IMG/VR virus record: IMGVR_UViG_3300032288_005212
Span: 32,001-96,000 of that record
Source of the DNA: an uncultured virus (IMG/VR IMGVR_UViG_3300032288_005212)
Taxonomy: Duplodnaviria > Heunggongvirae > Uroviricota > Caudoviricetes
Reading direction: 5' to 3' (one strand)
DNA length: 64,000 nt
Positions within the stretch are counted from its first letter, which is position 1. Every line of letters begins with the position of its first letter. Under the pieces are notes generated by a model that was not told where the DNA came from, did not search any database, and saw only the letters and a list, made by a program, of their open reading frames with translations. Below are positions 6,034 to 43,884 of this stretch, piece by piece. A program made the position numbers and the translations under genes.

Positions 6034-6061
6034 GAGAAGCTCCTTCGAAGGGAGAAAAAGT

Positions 6062-6090
6062 AAAGGGAAGCTTAGTTGCTTCCCTTTTTT
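6062..6090. terminator. probably bidirectional intrinsic terminator
   Basis: AAAGGGAAGC-TTAGTT-GCTTCCCTTTTTT, A-rich on the left side. Confidence 0.75.
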
Positions 6091-6468
6091 ATTAGTCCAT
6101 GAAAGTCGCATTAGTGTAAAAGTTACAGGCAAAATTAGCCCCTTCAGTAGAAGCAAGCCAAGTAGTTATTTAACGAAGATTAACTACTTGGCAATTGATT
6201 TAAACAAGTCAATGTTAAGAATACGCTGCTTAGAGTTAGTTCTTAATGTTCTATTTGATTTAGTTACAGTCGAAAAAAGATTAAACGACGAAGAACAATA
6301 AGTTGTGTCATTCACGGGACCGGGAGTCAAACTCCACCCTGAAACAGGGTACCCTCCGTGTGACCCGGTCCCGTTATAGGACACTAACTATTGTAACTTC
6401 TACTGTATAATTTTTTTCTCCGTCGGATTAGAACAATAAGAAGTTTCTGTTTTAGCTTCTCAAAAACA
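6062..6468 (-). ncRNA. candidate structured ncRNA or injection-stop-signal-like region
   Basis: minus promoter TTGACT-17-TATTAT 6475-6503; 12-bp IR 6157-6192; 11-bp IR 6314-6374 enclosing two hairpins; no convincing ORF. Confidence 0.4.
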
Positions 6469-6553
6469 TGAGATATAATATCATTTCGAGAGCAAAAAGT
6501 CAAGAACTTTTTTTCTGATGTATGACAATAAAAAAGGGCCTTCAAAGAGACCC

Positions 6554-6985
6554 TTATTCAACAACCTCATACACTGGTTCTACATAGTCAGCGCACTTCG
6601 GCGCAATCTTAGGAAAGTCGGGAGGATTATTCACTACCCTTTTCTCTCTTTCTGCAGGCTCATTCGGGCCAAGTGCAATTTCTGGAAACAGTTCTAATTG
6701 AATGGGCGAAGGCCCATAGCTGATATGTCGAAAGTATTTAATCGGCTTAGAACCAAATGGATGCTCTAAAGTTTCAGGAAATATATCAGGCTGAAGTACA
6801 TAATATGCAATTCTTTCAGGATATGTCCATCTAGTCCAATTTCCAAGCTCCGGAAAGTTTCTACGAACCCAGGAAGTAGATACTTCAGCTTCTTTCAATC
6901 CACCTCGATATAGTTTCTCAACTATTTCTGCTTGCTCAACAGTCCATGTATCATAAATTCTTTTAATAATATTCAAAACGACCAC
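6554..6985 (-). CDS. hypothetical protein
   Basis: 143-aa ORF, GGAG RBS, followed by hairpin and T-run. Confidence 0.6.
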   Translation of the reverse strand: MVVLNIIKRIYDTWTVEQAEIVEKLYRGGLKEAEVSTSWVRRNFPELGNWTRWTYPERIAYYVLQPDIFPETLEHPFGSKPIKYFRHISYGPSPIQLELFPEIALGPNEPAEREKRVVNNPPDFPKIAPKCADYVEPVYEVVE

Positions 6986-7096
6986 TCCGCTTCATATGTA
7001 TATTTTAAAAAAGAAAACTGCAACGTAAAAAAGAAAATTCCCGTTAGCTTTTCATATTGTACTACAACAGTGGGAATTAAATATATTTTACCGCTC

Positions 7097-7309
7097 TTAA
7101 CTCGTCTTCGATACAGCAAACTTTTCTGCACCCGAAATGCCCAGACCCGCGATCGTAATGTACATAACGCCTTCAAAAATGAATTTTTCGACATTGTAAC
7201 CTCCAAAAAGGTTTGCTAGAAACCCGATACAAATAAGTACAGAACAAGCAAAAGTAACCAAACGCTTCGAAGAAAGGTGCCCATCATTATCTTGAAAAAA
7301 CCCATTCAT
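7097..7309 (-). CDS. small 2-TM membrane protein (holin-like)
   Basis: LSSKRL followed by two hydrophobic helices; AGGAG RBS. Confidence 0.6.
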   Translation of the reverse strand: MNGFFQDNDGHLSSKRLVTFACSVLICIGFLANLFGGYNVEKFIFEGVMYITIAGLGISGAEKFAVSKTS

Positions 7310-7566
7310 CTCCGTCTCCTTTTTAGCGTTGCTCGATTCGTACGTTTGTTATACTTGTACGAACTAGCAGAACGCCCTGATGCTTTTCCGGCGCGCGCCT
7401 TCGCGCGAGCAGCGGGAGTCATCGCATTTCTCTTCTTTCCTTTCGCAGTGAGCTTTGTTCCTCGCAGAACACCAGCTTTATTTAAAAAAGCGTAAGCTGC
7501 GCTCTTGGCGTTTTTCACGCCTTTGGCACGAAGTTGCCTCGTTAATCTCTCGACTATGGCAGGCAT
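7306..7566 (-). CDS. highly basic protein
   Basis: 86 aa, very K/R/A-rich. Confidence 0.7.
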   Translation of the reverse strand: MPAIVERLTRQLRAKGVKNAKSAAYAFLNKAGVLRGTKLTAKGKKRNAMTPAARAKARAGKASGRSASSYKYNKRTNRATLKRRRR

Positions 7567-7650
7567 TTATTTCTTCTTTTTCTTACGCTTTTTTTCTTCT
7601 TTATGAGGTTTGCCTTCGTCGTGACGCTCTTTTCTCTTTTTACCGGCCAT
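7567..7650 (-). CDS. 27-aa Lys-rich peptide
   Basis: MAGKKRKERHDEGKPHKEEKKRKKKKK; AAGGAG RBS; stop abuts next ATG. Confidence 0.55.
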   Translation of the reverse strand: MAGKKRKERHDEGKPHKEEKKRKKKKK

Positions 7651-7685
7651 TCTAATTCTCCTTCGCTTTGGCTTTTATTAGCCAC

Positions 7686-7709
7686 AAAAAAAGCCTCACG
7701 AAGAGGCTT
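7686..7709 (-). terminator. intrinsic terminator
   Basis: minus strand AAGCCTC-TTCGT-GAGGCTTTTTTT. Confidence 0.75.
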
Positions 7710-8186
7710 GAAGATGAAATCTTCCGAGGATGCGAGGGGGGAACAGCCTAAGTGTGGTCTTACGTTCGCCCCCCTCGCTGGGGAAAAGGGGAGAGGTTTC
7801 TAACGAACCACCTCTCTAAAACGTGTTGCCTAGGACTGTAATGGAATACACTAGGACTGTCCATCAGAAGAAATTAGATAACCCATCTTCTTTCTTCCTA
7901 CGGCCTCGAGGGCGCTGCTTTTTTGATACGGAAAGTTGTAAACCGGCGTTTTTTCAAAACTGCAAAAATAAGACAGTTCACGCAATGTCAATTCGGCGTT
8001 TATACAAAACTGCAAAAGGAACAAGGGATTTCTGTTCAATTGTATCTCCGTCGAGATAGCACCCTGGTATGAGTTAAAATATAAGGCGAATATCCGGTTT
8101 AATATTCATTAATCTTTTATCTCTTAACTGGAAGAGGCCCTAACAACCTTTTTAACTCAATTCGAACTCCCTTTCTCTCACAACAT
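7686..8186 (-). ncRNA. candidate ~500-nt structured ncRNA
   Basis: bounded by consensus promoter (8193-8221) and terminator; many stems; no ORF with RBS. Confidence 0.5.
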
Positions 8187-8192
8187 GGGAAT

Positions 8193-8221
8193 ATTATAAG
8201 GGTTGGGAGTTCAAAAGTCAA
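8193..8221 (-). promoter_or_regulatory. sigma70 promoter
   Basis: AAAAAAGTTC-TTGACT-17-TATAAT. Confidence 0.85.
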
Positions 8222-8259
8222 GAACTTTTTTTGGCCTGGTGACTTGAAAATTAAAAGAG

Positions 8260-8970
8260 TTAACTCCTTGTATTTTTAAGAAAAAGCCGATCACTCTTCT
8301 CTCCTTCAATAACATTTTCAACTACAAAACTTTCAAGAAGTTTCTCTACTCCGTTGTTTACACCTCTTCGACTATCAAATATAATTATAGCATTTTTAGC
8401 TGCATTATTCTTGATAAAAGAAATATATTCATCACAGGGGTAATGAAACCCCATTGAAAGAAGTGAAAGAAACAGTGTAAATTCAAATTTTGGAACTTCT
8501 TCCTTTTGAGGATTGCAGATTCTTACATTTGCATTTACATTACTTAAAATAAAAGATTTAGTACTTTCCAGGTTTGCATAGCCTGCTCCTTTTGAAGCAA
8601 AACCATGGTTACGATTATCAGTATCTTCTACATCAATTAGTACAATTTCAGAAGTAAGTTCTTCTGTAAGAAGAAGTAGTTCGATTATTCCATTGCCTGG
8701 ACCAATCGAAACTATTTTATTTAAACATTCTTTATTAAGAAATGCTTTTAGCTCCTTTACTTCAGTACTAATTTCTGAGACAAGTTCTTGAATATAAGAT
8801 TTAGTAAGATTATTATTATTTAAAAAATTTACAATACCTTGTTTATCTCCATAATTAAACCAGTTATGAAGAGCAGCACCACCGCCAAGGCGTAAAAAAG
8901 ACCCAGTTCTTTGAATAACTAGATCAGCTAGAAACTCTGGATTGACCGGCAGTTTTATTTCCGACAGCAT
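8260..8970 (-). CDS. class I SAM-dependent methyltransferase-like protein
   Basis: VSIGPGNG motif I, acidic LIDVE, SLLSMGFHYP. Confidence 0.6.
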   Translation of the reverse strand: MLSEIKLPVNPEFLADLVIQRTGSFLRLGGGAALHNWFNYGDKQGIVNFLNNNNLTKSYIQELVSEISTEVKELKAFLNKECLNKIVSIGPGNGIIELLLLTEELTSEIVLIDVEDTDNRNHGFASKGAGYANLESTKSFILSNVNANVRICNPQKEEVPKFEFTLFLSLLSMGFHYPCDEYISFIKNNAAKNAIIIFDSRRGVNNGVEKLLESFVVENVIEGEKSDRLFLKNTRS

Positions 8971-9194
8971 TTTTCAGCCATCCGACTGACAGCTTCAACA
9001 GCATCATTTGATGTTGTGTTCGCTTCGACGGCGAGAGCTTTTGCTTCAACGGCGAGAGCCTTTGCTTCTTCGGCAACAACTCGCGCATCAAGAGCAGCAG
9101 CCATCGCCTGCTTGCTTTCCGTAATCTCTACCGTTGGTCCTTCCGTGGTGCAGCCTACCAAAGTGAGTGCCGCTACTAGTGCAAAATACTTCAT
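8955..9194 (-). CDS. Lpp/OprI-family alanine-zipper lipoprotein
   Basis: lipobox LVGC, EAKALAV heptads, C-terminus RMAEKCCRK like OprI RMLEKASRK. Confidence 0.75.
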   Translation of the reverse strand: MKYFALVAALTLVGCTTEGPTVEITESKQAMAAALDARVVAEEAKALAVEAKALAVEANTTSNDAVEAVSRMAEKCCRK

Positions 9195-9333
9195 TCATAC
9201 TCCTTTTCAATTATCTTAGCCGTTAGCTCTATTGCATATTCATGCGAAAGAGCAAATTGCTTTACAAGTTCATTTACAATATCATCAAAAGGTTCGTGCC
9301 ACATCTCGAGCACTACAGCTTCAATTTCTGGAT

Positions 9334-9600
9334 TCATCGTCCAATATCTTTTATATTCTCTCTGCTAATAACCTGGTAAGCACCTTTGTTATAAGCAATC
9401 GCAACAGTGTACTTCGAACTCACTTCCTTTTGATAAGAAAGATCCTTAGGCTCCACATATTTTCCAATAGGTGCAGAAGGAATCTTGCTCTCTGCTTTGC
9501 GATTACTAGAGACTTGCAGAGGAACAAACGGAGCTCGAGGCTTCCTTGCCCGAGCAGTTTTACGACGCTTTGAAGGCATCGGATTTACATAGACCATCAT
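9334..9600 (-). CDS. hypothetical phage protein
   Basis: YTVAIAYNKGAYQVI motif common in large phages. Confidence 0.7.
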   Translation of the reverse strand: MMVYVNPMPSKRRKTARARKPRAPFVPLQVSSNRKAESKIPSAPIGKYVEPKDLSYQKEVSSKYTVAIAYNKGAYQVISRENIKDIGR

Positions 9601-9746
9601 CGGCCTTGACCTCGATACGCTTTGTAAGACCTCCTCTGTGTTTTATTCATTGAAGAAGTCTTAACCATCGCAGGGTTGCCGCTGACAGCGGTCTTCTTCG
9701 GTGGATTAGTTTTAGTCTTCTGATTACCAGTACCAATTCTTGCCAT
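9597..9746 (-). CDS. 49-aa basic peptide (YRGQG C-terminus)
   Basis: MARIGTGNQKTKTNPPKKTAVSGNPAMVKTSSMNKTQRRSYKAYRGQGR, translated by hand. Confidence 0.7.
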   Translation of the reverse strand: MARIGTGNQKTKTNPPKKTAVSGNPAMVKTSSMNKTQRRSYKAYRGQGR

Positions 9747-9748
9747 TT

Positions 9749-10276
9749 TTAGTCCCAAAGATTACGATAATATTTACCAAACAAACGAAAACCATTCTGA
9801 GCGCGAAGCTCTCGTTTTGAGTCATACGGCTGATCGTCTTCCACAATATGTTCAAAAGCGTAGATCATTTCGTTCAGAATCCAGTCCCAACGATAGAAAT
9901 GATAAACGTCTGTATCCCAGTCATTTTCTTTTGGAGGAGCATACGTGCTACGAATATATTCGGGCACATCCTCATCATCCGTGTAGGGCGCTCCGTGCTT
10001 TGTATCTCGAAGTTGTTTCAACATTGGAAGAATGATCGGAGCGAGAGTCGAGTCCATTCCCCAGGTATCGTACTTATCAATACGAACACTCACACGACGC
10101 TTTTCAAAAAACTTTAGACGAGCCGTGCCAATCTTATCTACCAGCTTACCAAGTCGAGTACAAGCAAACTTCTCCCCAATCTCAAAACGCCGGTCTTCCG
10201 AAAGAAAGAAAAAAACGCTATCAATCAACTGATACGGGCCGTACCAGTTCGTATACTTTCGAATTACGACTTTCAT
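9749..10276 (-). CDS. conserved hypothetical phage protein
   Basis: DKYDTWGMDSTLA..ILPMLKQL..GFRLFGKYYRNLWD. Confidence 0.75.
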   Translation of the reverse strand: MKVVIRKYTNWYGPYQLIDSVFFFLSEDRRFEIGEKFACTRLGKLVDKIGTARLKFFEKRRVSVRIDKYDTWGMDSTLAPIILPMLKQLRDTKHGAPYTDDEDVPEYIRSTYAPPKENDWDTDVYHFYRWDWILNEMIYAFEHIVEDDQPYDSKRELRAQNGFRLFGKYYRNLWD

Positions 10277-10383
10277 TGATTTGCCTCTTTAGATCACGAA
10301 TTTCGTCAGCAGCAAGAAACATAATTCCTGCGTAGATAGACATATTTGCCATACGAAGAAGTTTTTCTCCGTACTCTTCGAGT

Positions 10384-10638
10384 TTACTCTCCATGATCCA
10401 CCTCAAAACAAATATCCGTTTTGTCCAGATAGATACGAGTAACCACTTTATTTACATCAGGAAGCATAGTTCCAACAGCAATAAAAGGGCCGCCAGAAGG
10501 ATCTACAAAACCGAGTTCGTTGTAGTTGACAGTTTCTTGTCCTTCCTTACCGCCAAAACGAAAGTAGCTACCACCCTTCATTACATAATGGTCACCTTCA
10601 GCATCAAAGGTAATTATTTCGCCATAACGATTTCGCAT
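10384..10638 (-). CDS. hypothetical protein
   Basis: RBS and upstream promoter TTGACT-17-TATAAT at 10662-10690; VDPSGGPFI motif. Confidence 0.7.
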   Translation of the reverse strand: MRNRYGEIITFDAEGDHYVMKGGSYFRFGGKEGQETVNYNELGFVDPSGGPFIAVGTMLPDVNKVVTRIYLDKTDICFEVDHGE

Positions 10639-10693
10639 ACATTCTCTCCCGTAAAGAAGATATTATAAGGCTTTTTTAGTTGCAAGTCAAGAA

Positions 10694-10954
10694 CTATTTT
10701 TCCCACCACTCGTAGACAGAGTTTGCAGTACGAAAACGCACATAATTTCTCACTTCGAGCAGTATCTCTTCAATTGGCGAAGTCTGCCAGGCAAGGTTTT
10801 TTCCAATTGAAAGAGGGCCTACTCGCATACAGACCCCCACTCGAGGACTTGCGTGATATTGAATACACTCCTCTCGATTTTCGTACCATATAGCAGCAGA
10901 AAGCGGGCCACTAGAGCCCGCTCCATCACCAACCCTCTTCAGAAAGTAGGCCAT
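10694..10954 (-). CDS. hypothetical protein, paralog of 11481-11750
   Basis: DGAG.SG..P.VGV.MRVG..WQTS.I.EIL.E..NYVRFRT.NS.YEWWE shared. Confidence 0.7.
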   Translation of the reverse strand: MAYFLKRVGDGAGSSGPLSAAIWYENREECIQYHASPRVGVCMRVGPLSIGKNLAWQTSPIEEILLEVRNYVRFRTANSVYEWWEK

Positions 10955-11123
10955 CTTTCCACTCCTGAAACTGACGAGGAGACATATAGAACTCCAGTAC
11001 AGTTTCAAGTGCCGCAAGAAGTCGATGGTCGTTCTCTTTTATTACGTCATCATAGGCTTGAGCAAGCTCATTTCGAATAAGAGTAGCAATTTGCTCGTGC
11101 TCAATATCAATTTCAAATTTCAT
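10926..11123 (-). CDS. hypothetical protein
   Basis: ORF with GGAG RBS in the co-oriented array. Confidence 0.55.
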   Translation of the reverse strand: MKFEIDIEHEQIATLIRNELAQAYDDVIKENDHRLLAALETVLEFYMSPRQFQEWKDGLLSEEGW

Positions 11124-11480
11124 AGTGAACTCCAGTGTGAAAAGAAAAAATTAGCAATAATAAAAAGATTAGTAATCACTGATTGAACAATGAGAAAAGT
11201 ACGAATCCAAGCAACTTTATCTGCTTCGGAATCGCTACCTACTTTCTCTCCGAGAGCTTTTGCCCACAGTGACCACATTTTCATTCTTCGTCTTCGACTA
11301 CAAAGTGAATTTCAGAACCTAACGCAGCTTGAAAAGCTGACTCAATATATGCCGTATCTTCGACATATTCCCAGCTATCATCCTTTTCAATATGCTTGAT
11401 CCACTCTCCATCAGGACCACGCTCAAAAGTTCCGTTTTCTGTTTCCATCGTGTAAAAACGTCTTTCATAAATTGCAGTAA

Positions 11481-11750
11481 TCATATATGCTCCCACCACT
11501 CGTATATTGAGTTGCTTGTTCGAAATCGAACGTAGTTTTCAGACTCTTCGAGAATCTCTGTAATCAGAGATGTTTGCCACCAATCCTGGTAACTATAGGT
11601 TCGTCCACCAATTGAACCCACTCGCATAGCAACGCCCACTACGGGGCGCGCTCCATGAGAGAGCTTAACTTGTCCATTTTCTAACCAAAGTGCAAGAGAC
11701 ATTCCACCACTGTCGCCAGCCCCATCACTTTCTCGTCGAAGATTATACAT
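11481..11750 (-). CDS. hypothetical protein, paralog of 10694-10954
   Basis: motifs shared with the paralog. Confidence 0.7.
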   Translation of the reverse strand: MYNLRRESDGAGDSGGMSLALWLENGQVKLSHGARPVVGVAMRVGSIGGRTYSYQDWWQTSLITEILEESENYVRFRTSNSIYEWWEHI

Positions 11751-12021
11751 TCTGTTCCTCTATACTATTGTGCAGGTCAAGATAGCCTGCGCACTGTGCT
11801 TGAGCATATGCTTCTGGCCCAAAGCCAAAGGTATCATACAGCACGCCACGATAAGTTCGATTTTCAACTAGTTCTGCTTTATGTATTCTTCGTACAACTG
11901 CACAAAATGCTTTTAGTTGATCCTCTTTTGAAAGAGAATTCCAAAATTCCTCTTGTTCTGCTTCTAGTGACTCCATTGCTTCCTTAAAGATTTTACTAAA
12001 TTCTTCCAAAGCTTCAAGCAT
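11743..12021 (-). CDS. hypothetical protein, paralog of 15824-16105
   Basis: W.SLSKE.QL..FCAVVRRI...TYR..LYD.F.F shared. Confidence 0.7.
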   Translation of the reverse strand: MLEALEEFSKIFKEAMESLEAEQEEFWNSLSKEDQLKAFCAVVRRIHKAELVENRTYRGVLYDTFGFGPEAYAQAQCAGYLDLHNSIEEQNV

Positions 12022-12346
12022 GATTGTCGCACCTCGTTTTGAGCCAACCACCTTTTACGAAATTTTGCCCAGGTGATCCACAGATTTCACAAACATTATT
12101 GCTCATGCACTCTGCCATTCCAATCGCACCTTCGATGAATTCGTCAGCATAATGAGAATAAACTCGAAGTCCACCAAACTTTTCTTTGATTTGAACAACT
12201 TCGAATACGCCATCAAGCGGAGTGCGAGCTACATGACAATTAATCGTATGCAAAAGATTTTTAATCAAAGAATGCCATCCTTTTCCTACTGCAAAAATGC
12301 AATCATGTGATAGAATATCTTCATATTTTTCTCGAAGATCGTTCAT
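12014..12346 (-). CDS. hypothetical protein (QIKEKFGGLR family, Zn-finger C-terminus)
   Basis: GW..L, QIKEKFGGLRVY, CEICG..C motifs. Confidence 0.7.
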   Translation of the reverse strand: MNDLREKYEDILSHDCIFAVGKGWHSLIKNLLHTINCHVARTPLDGVFEVVQIKEKFGGLRVYSHYADEFIEGAIGMAECMSNNVCEICGSPGQNFVKGGWLKTRCDNHA

Positions 12347-12543
12347 TTTTTCTTTTCCCACGCCCAGTTATCTGTTGCCCAATCAAGTATACAATCATTA
12401 AATGAATACTCTCCGTCCCCATACTTTCGGCACATCGCCTTATGCCAGAATGGAAAATAGTCACGACGAATATCTTCTTCGGTGACAGTTACAATATGAC
12501 CATCACCATATTCATCGTATGCGTCATATTGAAAATATCTCAT
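12343..12543 (-). CDS. hypothetical protein
   Basis: ATGA-coupled ORF in array. Confidence 0.6.
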   Translation of the reverse strand: MRYFQYDAYDEYGDGHIVTVTEEDIRRDYFPFWHKAMCRKYGDGEYSFNDCILDWATDNWAWEKKK

Positions 12544-12758
12544 TCGTCACCATCCCATTCAATACCGTTATTATAACACCATTCTTTAATAATGTCAATG
12601 CTTTTTTGCGCCTGGGCCTCTTCTGCATCCCAAGTTTCTTGAGTGTAGTTATCTCCGCCACAACCACAGTCACAGCCAAAACGCACAGCCATACGAGTAG
12701 GACTCCAGAGAGCTTGCTCGTAGTTTGAAAACATATACTTGAGTTCAGAAAATTTCAT
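12540..12758 (-). CDS. hypothetical protein (GCDCGCGGD motif)
   Basis: coupled ORF with Cys-rich motif. Confidence 0.6.
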   Translation of the reverse strand: MKFSELKYMFSNYEQALWSPTRMAVRFGCDCGCGGDNYTQETWDAEEAQAQKSIDIIKEWCYNNGIEWDGDE

Positions 12759-13002
12759 TTCTTTTTTGCAGCCTTATTTGCCTATTTAAGTCTTCCCAAA
12801 GATTGATAGCTTCTTCTCGCGTATCTGCAGTTATATTTATACCACATTCATCATCCAAGTCAGGACATCGAATAGTCCAACACCAGTTCGACTGGGGAGC
12901 TTCTGCGTTTGAAATATAAGTTTTGGTTCCATCTTCTTCAAGAACCCATGCTTCGCCAGTAGGCTCTGGCTTAAATATAGTACCACATACAGGACATTTC
13001 AT
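12745..13002 (-). CDS. Lar-like Zn-ribbon protein
   Basis: CPVCG...RC....CG...TREEAINLW pattern of the Lar restriction-alleviation family. Confidence 0.45.
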   Translation of the reverse strand: MKCPVCGTIFKPEPTGEAWVLEEDGTKTYISNAEAPQSNWCWTIRCPDLDDECGINITADTREEAINLWEDLNRQIRLQKRNEIF

Positions 13003-13196
13003 TTTTTAACTCCAAAGTGTTCCTTTATCTCATCACCAATAATATCAAGACCGTAGTCATCTACATGAACATCAATACATTCCTGAATAATCAACTGTAC
13101 GAAATATTCAAGCTCATCATCAGTAAACACCCAAGCAGGAGCAGAGATGTTCTCTACAATGGCTTCCAGAGCCAGGTCTCTAATTCGTATATTCAT
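12999..13196 (-). CDS. hypothetical (MNxRIRxLA..FAxLIIxEC family)
   Basis: paralogous with 14226-14429 and 14762-14965. Confidence 0.65.
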   Translation of the reverse strand: MNIRIRDLALEAIVENISAPAWVFTDDELEYFVQLIIQECIDVHVDDYGLDIIGDEIKEHFGVKK

Positions 13197-13197
13197 G

Positions 13198-13437
13198 CTA
13201 GTCTCTCATCCAAGGTCTTGGAGCATACGCTGCCATCATTATTTCACGCATTAGCATATTTTCTTTTCGCAACTCTTCCACTTCTTTTTTCAGAGCTGCG
13301 TACTCACACGTTTGATGATGCGTCTTTGCATTTACGTTAAATTTGCAATGAGGGCACCACTGAGCATGAGTGAATATGTCAAAACACTCACAGAGATCTA
13401 TCGGAGAAAAGCACGTTCCGCAGACTTCACGATTCAT
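13198..13437 (-). CDS. Cys-rich hypothetical protein
   Basis: start moved to ATG after AAGGAG at 13437. Confidence 0.55.
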   Translation of the reverse strand: MNREVCGTCFSPIDLCECFDIFTHAQWCPHCKFNVNAKTHHQTCEYAALKKEVEELRKENMLMREIMMAAYAPRPWMRD

Positions 13438-13717
13438 GTTTACTCCTTGCGCGAATGGCGGCAGCTTTAATGTCAAGAAGCTCGACACCTTCTTCACCAC
13501 CAATGTATCCCCATATAGCGTCGCGGCGGTGTTCTTCATCTGGCTCTACCAACTTCGCACACGCTTCCCGCTCATGCGCTGCGATGAGGGCGGCAAACTT
13601 CTCTAGCTGTACTATACCCATCATCCAGACTGTGTTCTGAGATGGCAGTGCAACTTCTGCGTAAGGCTCTTCTGAGATAGCCTTTCGTGCCATCTCAATT
13701 AGATTAAGACGATTCAT
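13427..13717 (-). CDS. hypothetical (AAHEREACA family)
   Basis: paralog of 13704-13964; AAGGAG RBS. Confidence 0.65.
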   Translation of the reverse strand: MNRLNLIEMARKAISEEPYAEVALPSQNTVWMMGIVQLEKFAALIAAHEREACAKLVEPDEEHRRDAIWGYIGGEEGVELLDIKAAAIRARSKHES

Positions 13718-13964
13718 GTTTACTCCTTGCGCGCATGGAGTCATAAATAACTTGTACTGGAGACTCACGTATGGCGGCGGCAACCTCTGATAACGTTAAA
13801 TAGTGTTCAGCGAGGATGCTATCTTCGCATACTCGTGCACACGCTTCTCGCTCATGCGCTGCGACAAGGGCGGCGAAGCGTTCAAGAAATGCAATATCAC
13901 TTGAAGACATCGCCCAAGTGAAATTGACTTCACGTGCCATGCGGATGATATCATCACGATTCAT
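13704..13964 (-). CDS. hypothetical (MNRDDIIRMARE..AAHEREACA family)
   Basis: paralog of 13427-13717. Confidence 0.65.
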   Translation of the reverse strand: MNRDDIIRMAREVNFTWAMSSSDIAFLERFAALVAAHEREACARVCEDSILAEHYLTLSEVAAAIRESPVQVIYDSMRARSKHESS

Positions 13965-14229
13965 GTTGCCACCAGGTGATTTTTCCATGAACTTTTTCAT
14001 ACTCGGCGATCAACTCTTCGTATGGCATGACTTCTTCTGTTTCAAAGGTGTCCAGCCAGTTTGTCAGATTGCCCCAGTCTTGCCGATGCATCATGCTCAA
14101 CGCATACTCCTCTGGGTACTCTGAGTCTGTGCCGTAGATGTCGATGCGACCAGTGGCCCAACAGTCGCCGTGTTTCTCGGTCCAGTCAAGAGATACAGGT
14201 CCCATCCAGTTGGTGCTATAGTGGATCAT
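13954..14229 (-). CDS. hypothetical protein
   Basis: coupled ORF. Confidence 0.6.
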   Translation of the reverse strand: MIHYSTNWMGPVSLDWTEKHGDCWATGRIDIYGTDSEYPEEYALSMMHRQDWGNLTNWLDTFETEEVMPYEELIAEYEKVHGKITWWQHES

Positions 14230-14429
14230 CGCTTGAGTCCAAAACGATTGACTTTGAGCCAGTCTAATTGACTAACCGCTTCATCATGTCCATGCCATGA
14301 CAAATTATCCTGACATTCCCGAATCAATAACTCGGCGAATTTTTCAACATCCATCATTGCTGGAACTATACTGTCTCCCCACTCACCTGCACCTGCCTGC
14401 AGGGCAAGTTCTCTAATTCGTTCGTTCAT
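14226..14429 (-). CDS. hypothetical (MNERIRELA family)
   Basis: paralog motif EKFAELLIREC. Confidence 0.65.
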   Translation of the reverse strand: MNERIRELALQAGAGEWGDSIVPAMMDVEKFAELLIRECQDNLSWHGHDEAVSQLDWLKVNRFGLKR

Positions 14430-14626
14430 ACCCGTTTCACCTGCCAGCAATGACTGCGACCTTTGACACCGTCATCATATTGTAACTCCAAGTCGCCCCA
14501 GAAGGACTCTGGTCCATCGTAGTGACGAATCTGACGAATCACTGTGGCTTCCATTTTTGCGGGACCCACATATACACGATCCCCCGCCTGAAATGGTGCA
14601 GGCTTCTGAACGATATCATTCTCCAT
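14426..14626 (-). CDS. hypothetical SH3/KOW-like protein
   Basis: FQAGDRVYV motif; start revised. Confidence 0.5.
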   Translation of the reverse strand: MENDIVQKPAPFQAGDRVYVGPAKMEATVIRQIRHYDGPESFWGDLELQYDDGVKGRSHCWQVKRV

Positions 14627-14761
14627 AATATACACCCTTTGGTAGATCAGGTCGATACTTCCACAGCCAAAAGTCTGCCATGGGCATATGCCTGCTGGGA
14701 AAGTACCAGACTTTTCGATAGCCCAGACTCTGCATGAATTTGTCAAAGTACCAGCGTATCA

Positions 14762-14965
14762 TCACTCAATACCAAAGTGTTCTCGCCAAGCAGCAGCAAT
14801 ATGGCGATTATAGAGTTCGTTGTCAACCAAAGCATTTGCACACTCCGAAATAATCAGACGAGCAAACTGCTCTAGTTCTGCATCGTAGAACTGCCACACA
14901 GGCGGAACGTGCTTTCGTGTGCCTGCGGCGTCTTCAGCAAGTTTACGCAAGAGCACATCATTCAT
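14762..14965 (-). CDS. hypothetical (FARLIISEC..EHFG family)
   Basis: paralog motif. Confidence 0.65.
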   Translation of the reverse strand: MNDVLLRKLAEDAAGTRKHVPPVWQFYDAELEQFARLIISECANALVDNELYNRHIAAAWREHFGIE

Positions 14966-14966
14966 T

Positions 14967-15209
14967 TCAGTATGCTCCCCAGTCCCCGCCGCTCAGTGCG
15001 GCTTCAACTCTTGTGACGATATAGCCGTCATTGCTGTAGTCGTGGATGTACCTTAGCAACTCCTCCAACTCCGCGATGCGGGCGCGGAGGTAGGCGATTT
15101 CTTCCGTGATGCTTTCCTGATCTCCAATGGTCAGACGAATATCACCCAAGCCGAGATGGAAGTCTTTATGATGCCGCCGCATCTCAAACATCGATTCAAT
15201 GTCCATCAT
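14967..15209 (-). CDS. hypothetical coiled-coil protein
   Basis: RIAELE...AALSGG shared with 15206-15463. Confidence 0.6.
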   Translation of the reverse strand: MMDIESMFEMRRHHKDFHLGLGDIRLTIGDQESITEEIAYLRARIAELEELLRYIHDYSNDGYIVTRVEAALSGGDWGAY

Positions 15210-15463
15210 TCCCTCCCGCCGCTCAGGGCGGCTTTAGCGTTGCGGTATGTAGCCGATCCGAATCCGAGAGCGCGCCATGTTTTGTACTCGCTTTCTCCGT
15301 AGTCGCGTATATTATCTCTGAGAAACCAATACTCCATGTTATCTACTGCGCCGCGAAGAGCAGCCTCCAACTCCGCGATGCGGCGGTCCTTCGCAGCGTT
15401 CTCCGCGCGGAGGCGTTCAAGCTCAGCGGTTTGCTCTTGAGCGATATCGTCATCATGATTCAT
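15206..15463 (-). CDS. hypothetical coiled-coil protein
   Basis: RIAELE...AALSGG. Confidence 0.6.
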   Translation of the reverse strand: MNHDDDIAQEQTAELERLRAENAAKDRRIAELEAALRGAVDNMEYWFLRDNIRDYGESEYKTWRALGFGSATYRNAKAALSGGRE

Positions 15464-15653
15464 GTTTAATTCTCGCAAGAACATTTAGAAGTTCAAATTC
15501 GCCATACGTCAAACTAAAATGCTTATCGTCAATAGTTACGTCAAACCCTTCGCCATTGTTCCACTCAGTAACTTCCATGAAAGAGTGATCTTTTGCCAAA
15601 TGGCAGTACTCTTTCAAGGGTGCGAATACAGCTTTACGATTATAGAATTCCAT
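15453..15653 (-). CDS. hypothetical protein
   Basis: EVTEW.NGEGFDV motif; GGAGG RBS. Confidence 0.65.
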   Translation of the reverse strand: MEFYNRKAVFAPLKEYCHLAKDHSFMEVTEWNNGEGFDVTIDDKHFSLTYGEFELLNVLARIKHES

Positions 15654-15837
15654 CGTCATCCTCCAGGCAATATCCAATGCCAATATCAACGTAAGTTTGA
15701 CCATTTTCATTATAGCGACGAACATTATAATTACCACGATAATGGTAACTACGAACGCCGTCACTAATCAAAATCTCTACGTCTCCAATATCAGCTTGGA
15801 GAAGTTGAAGTTCACTAATCATATCACTGATTTTCAT
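15640..15837 (-). CDS. hypothetical protein
   Basis: coupled ORF. Confidence 0.55.
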   Translation of the reverse strand: MKISDMISELQLLQADIGDVEILISDGVRSYHYRGNYNVRRYNENGQTYVDIGIGYCLEDDDGIL

Positions 15838-16105
15838 TTATCACCATTGCATTATGCATTTCAAGAAAGCCCGCATCCATTGCACGAACATAGGAATTGA
15901 AATCAAACTCAAATACGTCGTAAAGAATGTGACGGTAAGTTCCTTTTACTACAAACTCTCCGTCACAAATCCGTCGCACTACGGCGCAAAATACATCAAG
16001 TTGTTGCTCTTTTGAAAGCGAACTCCAAGTTTCCTCTTCTCGAGCACGATATACTTTTCGAGCCTGTTCAAAAGCTCCCCGAAGTTCTTCAATCACTTCT
16101 TTCAT
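15824..16105 (-). CDS. hypothetical protein, paralog of 11743-12021
   Basis: shared motif; promoter TTGACT-17-TATAAT at 16129-16157. Confidence 0.7.
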   Translation of the reverse strand: MKEVIEELRGAFEQARKVYRAREEETWSSLSKEQQLDVFCAVVRRICDGEFVVKGTYRHILYDVFEFDFNSYVRAMDAGFLEMHNAMVINENQ

Positions 16106-16153
16106 CTGTAACTTTCCAAAGAAGAATTATTATAGTGCATAAAACTAAAAAAG

Positions 16154-16429
16154 TCAACATTCATTCAGTCGTGCTTCTGCATAAAGAGCGGCGTATGCAA
16201 TGAGATCTTCGCAACTATCAACGTGCCCTTTTTCTCTCTGCCTATCTCGTACCATTTTGAGTAGCGCAAGAATCAACATACCTTCAGCTTCGGTTAAATC
16301 TCTACCCGTAATTGCGTTAAAGGCCGCAATAGTGCGGCCCATGCTACGCTCTCCACTAGGAGAATCATACTGAAGCCCTCTTTCGGAAAGAAGGCACAGT
16401 GCGTTTTCTAGCAATGTTTCAACTTTCAT
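16154..16429 (-). CDS. DUF6378-like all-alpha protein (possible nucleotide pyrophosphatase fold)
   Basis: ERG.QYD..ERSM..FNAITG..LLK.VR..H.DS..D..YAAL. Confidence 0.65.
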   Translation of the reverse strand: MKVETLLENALCLLSERGLQYDSPSGERSMGRTIAAFNAITGRDLTEAEGMLILALLKMVRDRQREKGHVDSCEDLIAYAALYAEARLNEC

Positions 16430-16607
16430 GGCCAATCTCAAACATTTCATCAATGTTAAGCATTACGGATGCTACGATTGCATCAGTAATAGCTTCCATG
16501 CTTGGCTGATCGTTATGCTTATAAGCACGGCGATAGCCTGCCGTTACTCCGGCAGCGATAGCGTCTTCAATAAGATCACGAAGTGCGGTCGGTCGAATTT
16601 GCATCAT
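16419..16607 (-). CDS. hypothetical protein
   Basis: GYRRAYKH motif; coupled ORF. Confidence 0.6.
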   Translation of the reverse strand: MMQIRPTALRDLIEDAIAAGVTAGYRRAYKHNDQPSMEAITDAIVASVMLNIDEMFEIGHES

Positions 16608-16854
16608 TTTTAATAAACCTCAGTTTTTGTTCGGGCTTCCAGTTTTTGAGATAGTCTGACATTTCATCAAACTGTCGAATATATTCGGCAGTAGTAACTT
16701 CTCGAGTAGAAGTAATAAGTTCATCAAGATGAGTTTGTCCAAACTCTTCTACTTCTTCGCAGGTTACATAGTCTTTTGCATACTCTGCTTTTTCACATTC
16801 AATCGCATAAGCGTGACGAAAAATCTGTACAGTTTCAACAATATAAAGTGGCAT
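16576..16854 (-). CDS. hypothetical protein
   Basis: AGGAGG RBS; Y.VETV..FR..Y.IE motif. Confidence 0.7.
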   Translation of the reverse strand: MPLYIVETVQIFRHAYAIECEKAEYAKDYVTCEEVEEFGQTHLDELITSTREVTTAEYIRQFDEMSDYLKNWKPEQKLRFIKNDANSTDRTS

Positions 16855-16876
16855 AATGGCCTCCTTGTGTAAAAAT

Positions 16877-16951
<75 letters not shown>

Positions 16952-16992
16952 AGTTGCTGCTCAATTTACCCTCGGAGTAGCAAACGAGAATA

Positions 16993-17076
16993 TGGTACCG
17001 ATGAGAAGACTCGAACTTCCACAACTTACGTCACTAGAACCTAAATCTAGCGTGTCTACCATTCCACCACATCGGC
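16993..17076 (-). tRNA. tRNA-Leu(TAG)
   Basis: long variable arm, TT-TAG-GT loop, CCA. Confidence 0.95.
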
Positions 17077-17081
17077 AAGTA

Positions 17082-17180
17082 CGGTTTTTATCTGCATCAC
17101 ACTCTCGGGTTACCCGTGCCGCAACTTAATCGGATGAAGGTAACTTGCCTCATGGCAGACCGGACAGCAACCGAAAACCG
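17082..17180 (-). ncRNA. candidate ~100-nt structured RNA upstream of tRNA-Leu
   Basis: ends CGGTTTT/AAAACCG pair; internal stems TGCC-ATGA-GGCA and GTTACC/GGTAAC. Confidence 0.45.
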
Positions 17181-17185
17181 GTAAT

Positions 17186-17845
17186 TTAACTTAACGAAGA
17201 ATTAGTCAAATACTTATTTTGAATAGGAAATTTAAGTGGCTCAGCACTGAGTCTTTTAGCTATTACATAAATAGAACACTCAGAACTTGCTTGAAACCTT
17301 GCTGTTGGATGCACTTCAGAAGAATTTGATCCATTAGTTACTATCATAAGCTCTATTTTCCAGTTATTTTGAGTGTACAAATCATGGTAAAAAGTAGGCT
17401 GTATACAATAAAACCCATGATTTAACATCGTTAATGGGGGAGTATGAAAAATGACTCCACCAGGTTTAACAGCATTTGCTGCATTAATCGTAGCCTGCCA
17501 AATATTGGCACAATGTTCAGTAGTACCACAGTCTAAAACTATATCGTACTTTCCAAAATCTTGGGGTTGATTTAGGTCAAAAATTTCTTCTCTACCACGA
17601 CTAGCTACAATATCAACATATCGTATTGTATTAATACCCAACTTCCTGAATACTTCGTCTGTCTCTGGCAATCTGTGGTGTCTTCCATGCCATCTACCAA
17701 AATCAGTTTCTGCAGTAGTTTGAAAGCCTGTAATAGTTTTAAGCTCATCCTGTGACATAACCATGTCTGGATATGACAAAGATAGCAATGAATCGCAGGG
17801 CATAAATTTTTTGATATTGCTAAGCCCTAATGCATTAATTCCCAT
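17186..17845 (-). CDS. class I SAM-dependent methyltransferase-like protein
   Basis: YDIVLDCGTTEH..N...VKPGG..NHGFY motifs. Confidence 0.7.
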   Translation of the reverse strand: MGINALGLSNIKKFMPCDSLLSLSYPDMVMSQDELKTITGFQTTAETDFGRWHGRHHRLPETDEVFRKLGINTIRYVDIVASRGREEIFDLNQPQDFGKYDIVLDCGTTEHCANIWQATINAANAVKPGGVIFHTPPLTMLNHGFYCIQPTFYHDLYTQNNWKIELMIVTNGSNSSEVHPTARFQASSECSIYVIAKRLSAEPLKFPIQNKYLTNSSLS

Positions 17846-17861
17846 AATTATTACCTGTTTA

Positions 17862-17935
17862 TGGAGCCCACACTCGGAATCGAACCAAGGATAGATGATT
17901 ACAAATCAACTGTTATACCATTTAACTATGCGGGC
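17862..17935 (-). tRNA. tRNA-Thr(TGT)
   Basis: cloverleaf, TT-TGT-AA loop, CCA; promoter TTGACT-17-GATAAT at 17945-17973. Confidence 0.95.
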
Positions 17936-18109
17936 AGAAAATATATTATCAATCCTGGCGAGTAAAAAGTCAAGAATTTTGTGGCCCTGTAGCAACAAAT
18001 TTTCTACCGCCTTTATGTTCTCGCATAATTGATCGTTGATTTGCTTCGATTTTTTCGAGCAGGTTTGAAATTTTGCGAAGCGTAAAAAGAACTTCTTTCG
18101 CCCAAGTAA

Positions 18110-18496
18110 TCATAAATCACCTTTTGCACGATTTTCGCTACGAGCGACTTCAAATCCGTCAGGATAGCGAGCTTGTAGCTTTTCTACATTCATTTTTACG
18201 ATCTCTTCAAGATTAACTGAAAGAGCGTTGGCAGCATTGGCGAGATACCAACATATATCTCCCAACTCACGTAGCATATGATAATGAACGTCAGCATTAT
18301 ATTCTTTTCCTTGAAAAATAATTTTCTTTACAATTTCAGAGAATTCACCGCTCTCGCTAGCCAGTCCAACACTTGCCGTCAGCAAGAGTGGGACATTCAC
18401 GTTCAGCGTAACAATGCGATCAATAAACTCACTCAGTCCTTTTGATTCCGCACTCGTTGTATACTTTACAAACTTCTGATATTCATTTAAATCCAC
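18110..18496 (-). CDS. mazG: MazG-like NTP pyrophosphohydrolase
   Basis: GLASESGEFSEIVKK...RELGDICWY..N..KL.ARYP. Confidence 0.9.
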   Translation of the reverse strand: MDLNEYQKFVKYTTSAESKGLSEFIDRIVTLNVNVPLLLTASVGLASESGEFSEIVKKIIFQGKEYNADVHYHMLRELGDICWYLANAANALSVNLEEIVKMNVEKLQARYPDGFEVARSENRAKGDL

Positions 18497-43209: not shown

Positions 43210-43238
43210 TTGACATATTCACTTTAATGCAGTATAAT
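43210..43238 (+). promoter_or_regulatory. sigma70 promoter
   Basis: TTGACA-17-TATAAT. Confidence 0.9.
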
Positions 43239-43245
43239 ACACTTT

Positions 43246-43413: not shown

Positions 43414-43504
43414 TAAATACGTTAGTTGCGCTAGTAATTTTATAGAATTCAGTATAATAGTATCAATGATTGGCGTTTGTGTCGCATCAATACTATTTAT
43501 GTAA

Positions 43505-43847: not shown

Positions 43848-43884
43848 ATTACAGCATCTACTGGTGCAGGCTTTAGGAGTATAT

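What the first reader, a model, noticed from the sequence alone, without database searches (positions are those of the whole stretch)
7686..8221. Candidate ~500-nt structured non-coding RNA with its own consensus promoter and terminator
Seen: TTGACT-17-TATAAT (minus) at 8193-8221 and an intrinsic terminator at 7686-7709 enclose ~500 nt with no RBS-bearing ORF, in an otherwise gene-dense genome. The interval is packed with stems: TGAGTTAAAA/TTTTAACTCA (8070-8159) closing two hairpins, TATCTC/GAGATA (8043-8058), AGAAGA/TCTTCT (~7866-7891), GAGAGGT/ACCTCTC (~7791-7816), a ~10-bp GCGAGGGGGG/CCCCCCTCGC stem (~7732-7778) and GAAGAT/ATCTTC. It also has direct repeats CGGCGTTTWTWCAAAACTGCAAAA x2 (7944-7967, 7994-8017) and CTAGGACTGT x2 (7830, 7851). 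Established: phages encode large ncRNAs of unknown function (e.g. GOLLD, ROOL). Inference: an undescribed abundant phage RNA, perhaps a protein sponge or RNP scaffold; K/R-rich peptides are encoded immediately downstream.
Basis: partly seen in the sequence, partly recalled or inferred. Interest (0 to 1): 0.75.

Follow-up and report, generated by a model that had tools for sequence, protein, structure and literature searches.

The report
Orphan promoter-to-terminator non-coding unit
An uncultured T5-like phage has a roughly 500-base protein-free stretch between a genuine-looking early promoter and a firm terminator, so it probably makes a discrete RNA; but nothing like it was found in any other sequence, so neither a conserved fold nor a function can be shown.

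Summary
The promoter, terminator, stems and both direct repeats are at the stated coordinates, and this is the largest internal ORF-free gap in the 106-kb genome.

- **Promoter:** it belongs to the phage's own early-promoter cassette. In its relatives that cassette sits 14-25 nt ahead of a gene; here a good ribosome-binding site leads only into a two-codon ORF.
- **Terminator:** it forms with probability about 1 and has no antiterminator alternative. Four small genes behind it have no promoter of their own.
- **Coding potential:** none of the internal ORFs looks coding.

The "structured ncRNA" reading is unproven.

- **No match or homologue:** I found no Rfam match. I found no homologue in cultured phages, in about 125 related viral and metagenomic loci, in 27 whole viral records (including the two closest large relatives), or in the bacterial scans. 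Covariation therefore cannot be tested.
- **Modest fold:** the predicted fold is only slightly more stable than the genome background (rank 17 of 209).

Best reading (about 0.45): a discrete early RNA of about 500 nt, whose terminator also limits read-through into the basic-protein genes. Rivals are gene debris, DNA-level sites and a small protein.

This scan has reported promoter-to-terminator RNA genes in other T5-like phages. None resembles this one in sequence.

The parts
8222..8232 (-). A-tract plus GTTC just upstream of the -35 hexamer; part of the phage's shared early-promoter cassette
   Evidence: The same AAAAA(n)AGTTC-TTGAC context occurs at promoters at window 10690, 35610, 38496 and 49629, and in relatives G006 and G001.
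8193..8221 (-). Sigma-70-type promoter TTGACT-17-TATAAT; predicted start near A8186
   Evidence: Matches 11 of 12 consensus positions. Belongs to the genome-wide promoter family. The cassette is shared with relative G006.
8152..8173 (-). Ribosome-binding site AAGGGAG, 6-nt spacer, then a two-codon ORF TTG AGT TAA; looks like a vestigial gene start
   Evidence: Read from the sequence. In the same cassette elsewhere, SD plus start opens a real gene 14-25 nt after the predicted start.
8070..8159 (-). 5' Y-shaped domain: a 10-bp closing stem, a 6-bp inner stem with one G-U pair, and two hairpins
   Evidence: Perfect 10/10 inverted repeat I6. Local fold -21.6 kcal/mol, z -2.6.
8042..8057 (-). Hairpin TATCTC/GAGATA; it holds the GGAG that precedes the 62-aa ORF
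   Evidence: Local fold -6.9 kcal/mol, z -3.0.
7994..8017 (-). 24-nt direct repeat, copy 1 (minus strand TTTTGCAGTTTTGTATAAACGCCG)
   Evidence: Family D1. Not significantly self-folding. Unique to this locus in the genome and in relatives.
7944..7967 (-). 24-nt direct repeat, copy 2 (22 of 24 identical to copy 1, 50 nt downstream)
   Evidence: Family D1. The two copies fall in different frames of the 62-aa ORF, so the repeat is at the nucleic-acid level.
7867..7897 (-). Hairpin (13-nt arms, 85% complementary)
   Evidence: Inverted repeat I1. Local fold -10.9 kcal/mol, z -3.0.
7829..7860 (-). Two CTAGGACTGT repeats 21 nt apart; the lower-coordinate copy (7830-7839) forms the genome's eighth and last CCTAGG (7829-7834)
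   Evidence: Family D4. CCTAGG census. The fold here is weak, z -1.1.
7791..7816 (-). Hairpin GAGAGGT/ACCTCTC
   Evidence: Local fold -11.7 kcal/mol, z -3.2.
7732..7778 (-). 10-bp G/C-rich hairpin GCGAGGGGGG/CCCCCCTCGC; holds one of only two G6 runs and one of only two C6 runs in the genome
   Evidence: Inverted repeat I4. Local fold -26.7 kcal/mol, z -4.0. Run counts.
7710..7724 (-). Small hairpin GAAGAT/ATCTTC directly before the terminator
   Evidence: Fold of 7686-7730.
7684..7709 (-). Intrinsic terminator: 7-bp stem, 5-nt loop, U-tract
   Evidence: Hairpin -10.1 kcal/mol, stem probability 0.97-1.0. Removing it costs 8-11 kcal/mol, so there is no antiterminator alternative.
7567..7650 (-). 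27-aa Lys/Arg-rich ORF with GGAG 7 nt before its ATG; first gene after the terminator
   Evidence: Positive codon score, +0.23.
7306..7566 (-). 86-aa basic protein of a conserved phage family with unknown function; its ATG abuts the stop of the 27-aa ORF
   Evidence: 16 viral relatives. Atlas clusters are all viral hypothetical proteins. No Pfam, PHROG or NCBIfam match.
6534..7309 (-). 70-aa membrane-like ORF (7097-7309), 143-aa ORF (6554-6985) and the terminator that ends the block (6555-6534)
   Evidence: Positive codon scores. No promoter scoring 10 of 12 or better lies between 7691 and the starts of the four downstream genes; the only one in the interval (6829-6800) lies inside the 143-aa ORF.

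Best explanation
This is a real early transcription unit. Host sigma-70 RNA polymerase starts at the promoter at 8221-8193, near A8186, and transcribes about 500 nt of non-coding sequence. Most transcripts stop at the constitutive intrinsic terminator at 7709-7691. The result is a discrete RNA of about 500 nt with a 5' Y-shaped domain, two single-stranded 24-nt repeats and a row of 3' hairpins.

The polymerases that read through provide the only recognisable transcription of the four small genes behind it (27 aa, 86 aa, 70 aa, 143 aa). The unit therefore also acts as a fixed valve that keeps expression of the basic-protein genes low relative to a strong promoter.

**Shown:** promoter family membership, the terminator and its lack of an alternative fold, the absence of coding signal, and the lack of another promoter for the downstream genes.

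**Inferred:** that the unit is transcribed, how efficiently it terminates, and any function of the RNA itself.
For: - **Promoter.** It matches 11 of 12 positions and carries the A-tract/GTTC cassette shared by at least eight other promoters of this phage and by relatives G006 and G001.
- **Precedent in the same genome.** The tmRNA has its own 12/12 promoter.
- **Terminator.** Its energy is -10.1 kcal/mol, equal to that of the terminator ending the block at 6555. Stem probability is about 1, and removing it costs 8-11 kcal/mol. It is one of only two clear intrinsic terminators (hairpin directly followed by at least four T's) on the minus strand of the 13-kb leftward block.
- **No competing promoter.** None scoring 10 of 12 or better lies between the terminator and the start of any of the four downstream genes; one 10/12 match (6829-6800) lies inside the last of them, the 143-aa ORF.
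- **Non-coding.**
  - Internal ORFs score -0.08 to -0.27 on codon usage, like shadow ORFs (mean -0.15). All neighbouring genes score +0.12 to +0.43.
  - No Pfam or PHROG hit.
  - The 62-aa ORF has no real homologue among 1.84 billion representative proteins.
- **Strand.** The minus strand folds better than the plus strand: -147.8 against -139.9 kcal/mol, and background rank 17 against 51 of 209.
- **Positional analogue.** In G006 the promoter at the matching position, downstream of the homologue of the 48-aa gene, is also followed by about 475 nt without an ORF.
- **Family precedent.** T5 itself has an annotated stable RNA gene, rnaX, with its own promoter.
Against: - No expression data could be obtained.
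- No homologue exists in any collection searched, so selection on the RNA cannot be shown.
- The fold is only modestly more stable than the genome background (z -1.4).
- The intact ribosome-binding site followed by a two-codon ORF looks like the stump of a lost gene.
- The locus lies in a hypervariable segment: 3.3 kb here against 8.7 kb in G006, with no shared genes.
- The G006 analogue has no terminator and no sequence similarity beyond the promoter.
Confidence: 0.45

Rival explanations
1. Evolutionary debris. A promoter cassette with its ribosome-binding site once headed a gene that has since decayed, or was replaced by a piece of foreign DNA. The stretch may be transcribed, but its sequence and stems have no function of their own.
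For: - The ribosome-binding site plus start codon sit at the family-typical distance but open a two-codon ORF.
- The sequence is a complete orphan by both sequence and structure searches.
- The segment is hypervariable between relatives.
- It holds motifs that are otherwise rare or confined in this genome: the only CCTAGG outside the pre-early modules, and one of only two G6 runs and one of only two C6 runs.
- The fold stability is not exceptional for this genome.
Against: - No remnant of any protein is detectable in six frames.
- The 24-mer is kept at 22 of 24 positions while the 26 nt between the copies are unrelated, which suggests constraint or a very recent event.
- Several local hairpins are individually well beyond shuffles, though I picked them after the fact.
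- Dense phage genomes rarely keep 500 nt of junk.
Confidence: 0.28
2. A DNA-level element. The direct and inverted repeats are protein-binding sites on double-stranded DNA. Candidates are operators for the phage's D5-like regulators, part of the T5-type repeat region near the injection-stop signal or terminal-repeat boundary, or an origin.
For: [quoted passage not shown]
- All eight CCTAGG sites of the genome lie within window -1996 to 7829, and the last is in this stretch.
- Each 24-mer contains an imperfect palindrome (GCAGTTT-N5-AAACGC), and the two copies are 50 bp apart, about five helical turns.
- The 24-mers do not fold significantly as RNA.
- Inverted repeats score the same on either strand.
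Against: - There is no cluster of DnaA boxes: one 1-mismatch box at 7678, and the genome total is at chance level.
- The T5-equivalent position, where pre-early and leftward early genes converge, is 6034-6553, not here. That stretch also has the most stable predicted fold in the genome.
- The eighth CCTAGG lacks the Fur-like palindrome of the other seven.
- The 24-mer occurs nowhere else in this genome or in G001 or G006.
- This reading does not explain the promoter-terminator frame, or why the minus strand folds better.
Confidence: 0.15
3. It encodes one or more small proteins: the 62-aa TTG ORF at 8039-7851, or micro-ORFs of 2-11 codons.
For: GGAG lies 6 nt before the TTG of the 62-aa ORF, and a strong ribosome-binding site precedes the two-codon ORF.
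Against: - The codon score is -0.11, the same as shadow ORFs.
- There is no genuine homologue among 1.84 billion representative proteins. The single hit is the translation of a tandem repeat.
- No Pfam or PHROG match.
- The GGAG lies inside a hairpin stem.
- The two 24-nt repeats are read in different frames.
Confidence: 0.07

Closest known systems
Phage T5 RNAX (rnaX, T5s08; NC_005859 40848-41566, annotated 'stable RNA with unknown functions', promoter P 16-17)
   Same: Both are non-coding units of several hundred nucleotides with their own sigma-70 promoter, on the leftward early strand of a T5-type phage, and neither has an assigned function.
   Different: There is no sequence similarity. 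rnaX runs straight into a tRNA gene and contains tRNA-like segments. This unit ends at an intrinsic terminator and precedes small basic-protein genes. rnaX is reported as a stable RNA, whereas this one has no expression evidence.
Large ornate phage and prophage RNAs GOLLD and ROOL
   Same: Both are large non-coding RNAs carried by phages with no known function.
   Different: cmscan against all 4227 Rfam models gave nothing in the stretch, either at gathering thresholds or at E up to 10. Those families are defined by deep conservation and covariation; this sequence has no detectable relative.
Type III toxin-antitoxin loci (ToxIN-type layout: promoter, RNA repeats, terminator, toxin gene). This comparison is from my own knowledge.
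   Same: The order of parts matches: promoter, repeat-bearing non-coding RNA, a terminator that sets the ratio of RNA to downstream message, then a protein gene.
   Different: Here there are only two 24-nt repeats 50 nt apart, not tandem units of 34-45 nt. No downstream protein matches any Pfam, PHROG or NCBIfam family, so there is no ToxN-like match. No Rfam antitoxin match.
T5 injection-stop-signal region (Repeat Region 3; bioRxiv 10.1101/866236)
   Same: Both are non-coding stretches rich in direct and inverted repeats, close to the boundary between pre-early and early genes in a T5-type genome.
   Different: It lacks paired DnaA boxes. It is not at the convergence point; 6034-6553 is. It is not conserved in relatives. 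It is framed by a promoter and a terminator.

Membership tests
Any Rfam 15 family (including GOLLD, ROOL, tmRNA, group I/II introns, retron msr, CRISPR repeats, ToxI) | Covariance-model score at or above the gathering threshold | tested here: not met
   No hit in 7686-8221 at gathering thresholds. At E up to 10 the best hit in the stretch is anti-hemB, 17 bits against a gathering score of 49.5 (E 0.75), lying over the terminator.
Conserved structured ncRNA (general criterion) | Homologues that keep base pairs through compensatory changes | not testable with these tools
   No homologue was found by BLAST or nhmmer in about 125 related loci. None was found in 27 whole viral records. Single-sequence covariance models R1 and R2 found none in 25 records.
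Conserved structured ncRNA (general criterion) | Fold clearly more stable than the background | tested here: inconclusive
   z -3.1 against dinucleotide shuffles. Against GC-adjusted windows of the same genome the z-score is only -1.4, rank 17 of 209.
T5 rnaX | Sequence similarity to T5 rnaX | tested here: not met
   blastn and nhmmer --max found nothing better than 13-nt chance matches.
T5-type injection stop signal / Repeat Region 3 | Paired DnaA boxes inside inverted repeats | tested here: not met
   One 1-mismatch box at 7678. The whole genome has 29 boxes with one mismatch or fewer, against about 23 expected by chance.
T5-type injection stop signal / Repeat Region 3 | Position at the end of the pre-early block, between convergent gene sets, and conservation among T5-like phages | tested here: not met
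   The convergence point is 6034-6553. There is no similarity in G001, G006 or cultured phages.
Phage mini-CRISPR array / RNA anti-CRISPR (repeat mimic) | The repeat matches a CRISPR repeat that occurs as arrays in some bacterial genome | tested here: not met
   The 22-base pattern gave 0 hits in genomes of 185,579 species. The 17-base core gave 89 single-copy hits across unrelated taxa, about the chance number, with no arrays and no extended similarity. No Rfam CRISPR-DR hit on the repeats.
Riboswitch or attenuator leader | An antiterminator fold that competes with the terminator | tested here: not met
   Terminator stem probability is 0.97-1.0 in 120-, 200- and 501-nt contexts (0.87-0.91 in the 300-nt context). 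Forbidding the stem costs 8.3-10.7 kcal/mol.
Type III toxin-antitoxin | Tandem antitoxin repeats followed by a ToxN/AbiQ-type endoribonuclease gene | tested here: not met
   The repeats are 24 nt within unrelated 50-nt units. The downstream proteins match no family.
Phage early sigma-70 promoter cassette of this lineage | A-tract, GTTC, TTGAC(T/A), 17-nt spacer and TATAAT, as at other gene starts of the genome and its relatives | tested here: met

The most novel reading that the evidence does not exclude
The stretch is a lineage-specific large non-coding RNA gene, a functional counterpart of T5 rnaX and of the large RNAs this scan has reported in other T5-like phages. It would act in trans, for example as a scaffold or decoy for a host RNA-binding protein or for the basic proteins encoded just downstream. 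The two conserved 24-nt single-stranded repeats would be the binding sites.
Probability: 0.15. Interest if true: 0.55.

Novelty: new member of a known kind. Interest (0 to 1): 0.28.

Why it matters
If the RNA is made and functional, it adds to a growing set of large non-coding RNA genes in the early regions of T5-type phages, none of which has a known role. Its layout is a strong promoter, then an RNA, then a fixed terminator, then basic-protein genes. That would be a simple model for how a phage sets the ratio of an RNA to a set of proteins. As it stands it is a single orphan sequence with no conservation or expression evidence. Its value is as a candidate to check, not as a discovery.

Tried and rejected
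- **Known RNA family.** Rfam at gathering and permissive thresholds, and ARAGORN, found nothing in the stretch.
- **Homologues next to relatives of the neighbouring genes.**
  - 16 viral loci carry the 86-aa homologue. None has the RNA, and the gene there is tightly packed.
  - 2 viral and 45 metagenome loci carry the 236-aa homologue. None has the RNA.
  - 65 viral loci carry the 175-aa homologue. None has the RNA and there is no local synteny.
  - The 143-aa gene has no viral relative.
- **Whole-record searches.** I searched G001, G006 and 25 further viral records by BLAST. I also searched 25 of these records, G001 and G006 among them, with two single-sequence covariance models. Only the window itself matched.
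- **Cultured phages.** blastn on the stretch, and tblastn with both neighbouring proteins, gave no match.
- **Pattern scans.** The G-rich stem arms found one unrelated hairpin. The 24-mer found nothing in viral contigs.
- **Mini-CRISPR or repeat mimic.** Rejected.
- **Decayed gene.** Six-frame pieces against all related loci, Pfam and PHROGs showed no remnant. The G006 gene behind the best promoter match is the homologue of window 33764-34354, not of this locus.
- **Relic of a tmRNA** (G006 has its tmRNA upstream of the basic-protein genes). There is no similarity to either tmRNA.
- **T5 rnaX.** No similarity.
- **DnaA-box cluster.** Absent.
- **Riboswitch-type alternative fold.** Absent.
- **Palindrome flanking the -10 (8215-8205 / 8171-8161).** About as expected by chance; not pursued.
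- **Literature.** A search for T5 non-coding RNA transcriptomics found nothing relevant.

Full report
**What the genome is**

The window is bases 32001-96000 of a 106,084-base IMG/VR virus record that CheckV rates complete. It encodes family-A DNA polymerase, a DnaB-type helicase, ribonucleotide reductase, eight tRNAs and a permuted tmRNA.

Its polymerase is 43% identical to those of cultured T5-like phages of Aeromonas, Providencia, Salmonella and Escherichia.

The layout matches T5. A block of plus-strand pre-early genes ends near 6033. A non-coding gap follows at 6034-6553. Minus-strand early genes (6554-19107) converge on that gap.

**The observation**

- The promoter TTGACT-17-TATAAT lies at 8221-8193, and the terminator hairpin at 7709-7691 is followed by a T-tract.
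- Perfect 10-bp inverted repeats lie at 8070-8079/8150-8159 and 7732-7741/7769-7778. A 13-nt inverted repeat lies at 7867-7897. The 24-nt direct repeat occurs at 7944-7967 and 7994-8017 (22 of 24 identical). CTAGGACTGT occurs twice.
- The smaller hairpins fold as described.
- With an 80-aa ORF threshold, 7567-8259 is the largest internal ORF-free gap of the genome.

Two details need correcting.
- There are ORFs with ribosome-binding sites. AAGGGAG plus 6 nt leads to TTG AGT TAA, a two-codon ORF at 8160-8152. GGAG plus 6 nt leads to a 62-aa TTG ORF at 8039-7851.
- The stretch is less exceptionally structured than it looks (see "Is it a structured RNA?").

**Is it coding?**

No.
- A codon log-odds score trained on 54 long ORFs of this genome gives -0.08 to -0.27 for the four internal ORFs. 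Shadow ORFs inside real genes average -0.15. Every neighbouring gene scores +0.12 to +0.43.
- No ORF piece matches Pfam or PHROGs.
- An exhaustive HMMER search of the 62-aa ORF against 1.84 billion representative proteins returned one hit. It is the translation of a tandem repeat, matched in 13 weak stretches.
- Six-frame translations match nothing in any related locus.
- The two 24-nt repeats fall in different frames of the 62-aa ORF, so they are a nucleic-acid feature.

**Is the promoter real?**

Very probably. Near-consensus promoters in this genome share a cassette: an A-tract, then (A/T)AGTTC, TTGAC(T/A), a 17-nt spacer and TATAAT, often followed by AT. Examples lie at window 10690, 35610, 38496, 49629 and 19166.

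The same cassette occurs in the two closest large relatives I could reach. G006 is a 92-kb record with 76% polymerase identity. G001 is a 98-kb record with 63% identity.

In nearly all copies a ribosome-binding site and start codon follow 14-25 nt after the predicted start. Here the site and a TTG are in place, but the ORF stops after two codons.

The phage's tmRNA also has its own 12/12 promoter. So this genome does drive RNA genes from such promoters.

**Is the terminator real, and is it regulated?**

- The hairpin is as stable as the one that ends the whole leftward block (-10.1 against -10.0 kcal/mol).
- Its stem forms with probability 0.97-1.0 in 120-, 200- and 501-nt contexts, and 0.87-0.91 in the 300-nt context.
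- Forbidding the stem costs 8.3-10.7 kcal/mol.

There is therefore no antiterminator alternative, and the riboswitch or attenuator reading fails.

This is one of only two clear intrinsic terminators (a hairpin directly followed by at least four T's) on the minus strand of the 13-kb block. No promoter scoring 10 of 12 or better lies between it and the start of any of the four genes that follow (27 aa, 86 aa, 70 aa, 143 aa). The only such match in the interval, 6829-6800, lies inside the 143-aa ORF. Those genes must be expressed by read-through.

**Is it a structured RNA?**

Unproven.
- The 501-nt transcript has an MFE z-score of -3.1 against dinucleotide shuffles. The opposite strand scores -2.9.
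- I also folded every 501-nt window of the genome and regressed energy on G+C. On that measure the minus-strand residual is -16 kcal/mol (z -1.4, rank 17 of 209). The plus-strand z-score is -0.7, rank 51.
- Individual hairpins score z -2.6 to -4.0, but I chose them after seeing the fold.
- The 24-nt repeats do not fold significantly.

The small advantage of the minus strand, and a G-U pair in the inner stem of the 5' domain, lean towards RNA rather than DNA. The signal is weak.

**Are there relatives?**

None that I could find.
- **Sequence searches.** blastn against 50,697 cultured phage records gave nothing. BLAST and nhmmer found nothing in:
  - 16 viral loci carrying the 86-aa homologue;
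  - 47 loci carrying the 236-aa homologue;
  - 65 loci carrying the 175-aa homologue.

  Whole-record BLAST of G001, G006 and 25 other viral records also found nothing.
- **Structure searches.** Covariance models built from the 5' domain and the 3' hairpins found only the window itself in 26 records.
- **Pattern scans.** Scans of viral and bacterial collections gave only chance matches.
- **Context in relatives.** The 86-aa gene there sits directly behind other genes with no gap.
- **Hypervariable segment.** The segment between the D5-like regulator gene and the 88-aa gene is 3.3 kb here and 8.7 kb in G006, with no shared genes.
- **One analogy.** In G006 the promoter at the matching position lies downstream of the homologue of the 48-aa gene (pairwise E 2e-8). 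It too is followed by about 475 nt without a credible ORF. Then come two small genes, the tmRNA and the basic-protein genes. That stretch shares nothing with this one beyond the promoter, has no terminator and folds unremarkably, z -1.85.

**The DNA-level rival**

T5 has a 1.66-kb untranslated region full of repeats and palindromes around its injection stop signal, with eight paired DnaA boxes (bioRxiv 10.1101/866236; annotation).

In this genome all eight CCTAGG hexamers lie between window -1996 and 7829, and there are none in the other 96 kb. The eighth is inside this stretch. That is striking. However:
- the eighth copy lacks the Fur-like palindrome that accompanies the other seven;
- there is no DnaA-box cluster;
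- the T5-equivalent position is 6034-6553, which also has the most stable predicted fold in the genome.

I keep this rival at about 0.15.

**Comparison with known systems**

The nearest known thing is T5 rnaX, an annotated 719-nt stable RNA of unknown function with its own promoter. There is no sequence similarity, and the downstream context differs.

Earlier reports of this scan describe promoter-to-terminator RNA genes of 560-1000 nt in other T5-like phages. The sequence look-up found no look-alike of this stretch among them. They raise the prior that T5-type phages carry such genes, but they are not evidence for this one.

**Verdict**

The stretch is a real, non-coding, promoter-to-terminator unit that most likely yields a discrete early RNA of about 500 nt and throttles read-through into four small genes (confidence about 0.45). 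Whether the RNA has a function of its own, or is the transcribed remnant of a lost gene in a fast-turnover segment (about 0.28), cannot be decided with the available data. I rate it a new, orphan member of a known kind, of modest interest.

Noticed in passing
window 6034-6553: This non-coding gap lies where the pre-early and leftward early genes converge. It has the most stable predicted fold of all 501-nt windows on the minus strand (residual -38 kcal/mol) and the second most stable on the plus strand (-28.5). A minus-strand promoter lies at 6503-6475 (10/12, with TG), and a bidirectional hairpin lies at 6062-6087. It sits where T5 has its injection stop signal, and is a better candidate than the assigned stretch for either that signal or a structured RNA.
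   Followed up: partly
window -1996 to 7829 (genome 30004-39829): All eight CCTAGG hexamers of the 106-kb genome lie in this 9.8-kb span, about the length of T5's terminal repeat. None lies in the other 96 kb, where about 10-13 would be expected. Seven are paired with a Fur-box-like palindrome; the eighth, at 7829, is not.
   Followed up: partly
window 43210-43894; L164:11863-12085: The permuted tmRNA gene (43471-43894) has its own 12/12 promoter at 43210. In the relative G006 the tmRNA sits elsewhere, directly upstream of the basic-protein genes, so the tmRNA gene has moved within this phage lineage.
   Followed up: partly
window 8260-8970 (-): The 236-aa gene just upstream of the unit belongs to an uncharacterised family with a SAM-methyltransferase-like glycine motif. 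A profile of the family has a weak match to rRNA methyltransferases RlmG and KsgA (E 0.006-0.06). It has 62 homologues in aquatic metagenomes and no Pfam, PHROG or NCBIfam match. None of the 47 homologue loci I examined has a similar RNA next to it.
   Followed up: partly
genome-wide, e.g. window 10690, 35610, 38496, 49629; G006 and G001: A shared early-promoter cassette (A-tract, AGTTC, TTGAC(T/A), 17-nt spacer, TATAAT) with a uniform 14-25-nt leader to the start codon is conserved across three related phage genomes.
   Followed up: partly
window -16919 (-) (genome 15081): A 12/12 promoter is followed immediately by a hairpin with a T-tract, and only then by the ribosome-binding site and gene about 60 nt downstream. 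This is a second promoter-terminator-gene arrangement in the same genome.
   Followed up: no
window 8955-9194 (-): A 79-aa lipoprotein with a lipobox and a weak match to the Lpp/OprI alanine-zipper family (NF040598, E 1e-4, below the curated cut-off).
   Followed up: no
window 8161-8171 and 8205-8215: An 11-nt inverted repeat (10 of 11 complementary) brackets the -10 hexamer and the start site of the promoter. GGGAGTTC occurs only here in the genome. About 1.5 such repeats are expected by chance in the stretch, so it may mean nothing.
   Followed up: no
L164:12079-12246 (-) (G006): A 55-aa ORF between the long leader and the tmRNA of G006 has CxC and CxxC motifs that recall small Bfd-type iron-sulfur proteins. 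This was judged by eye only.
   Followed up: no
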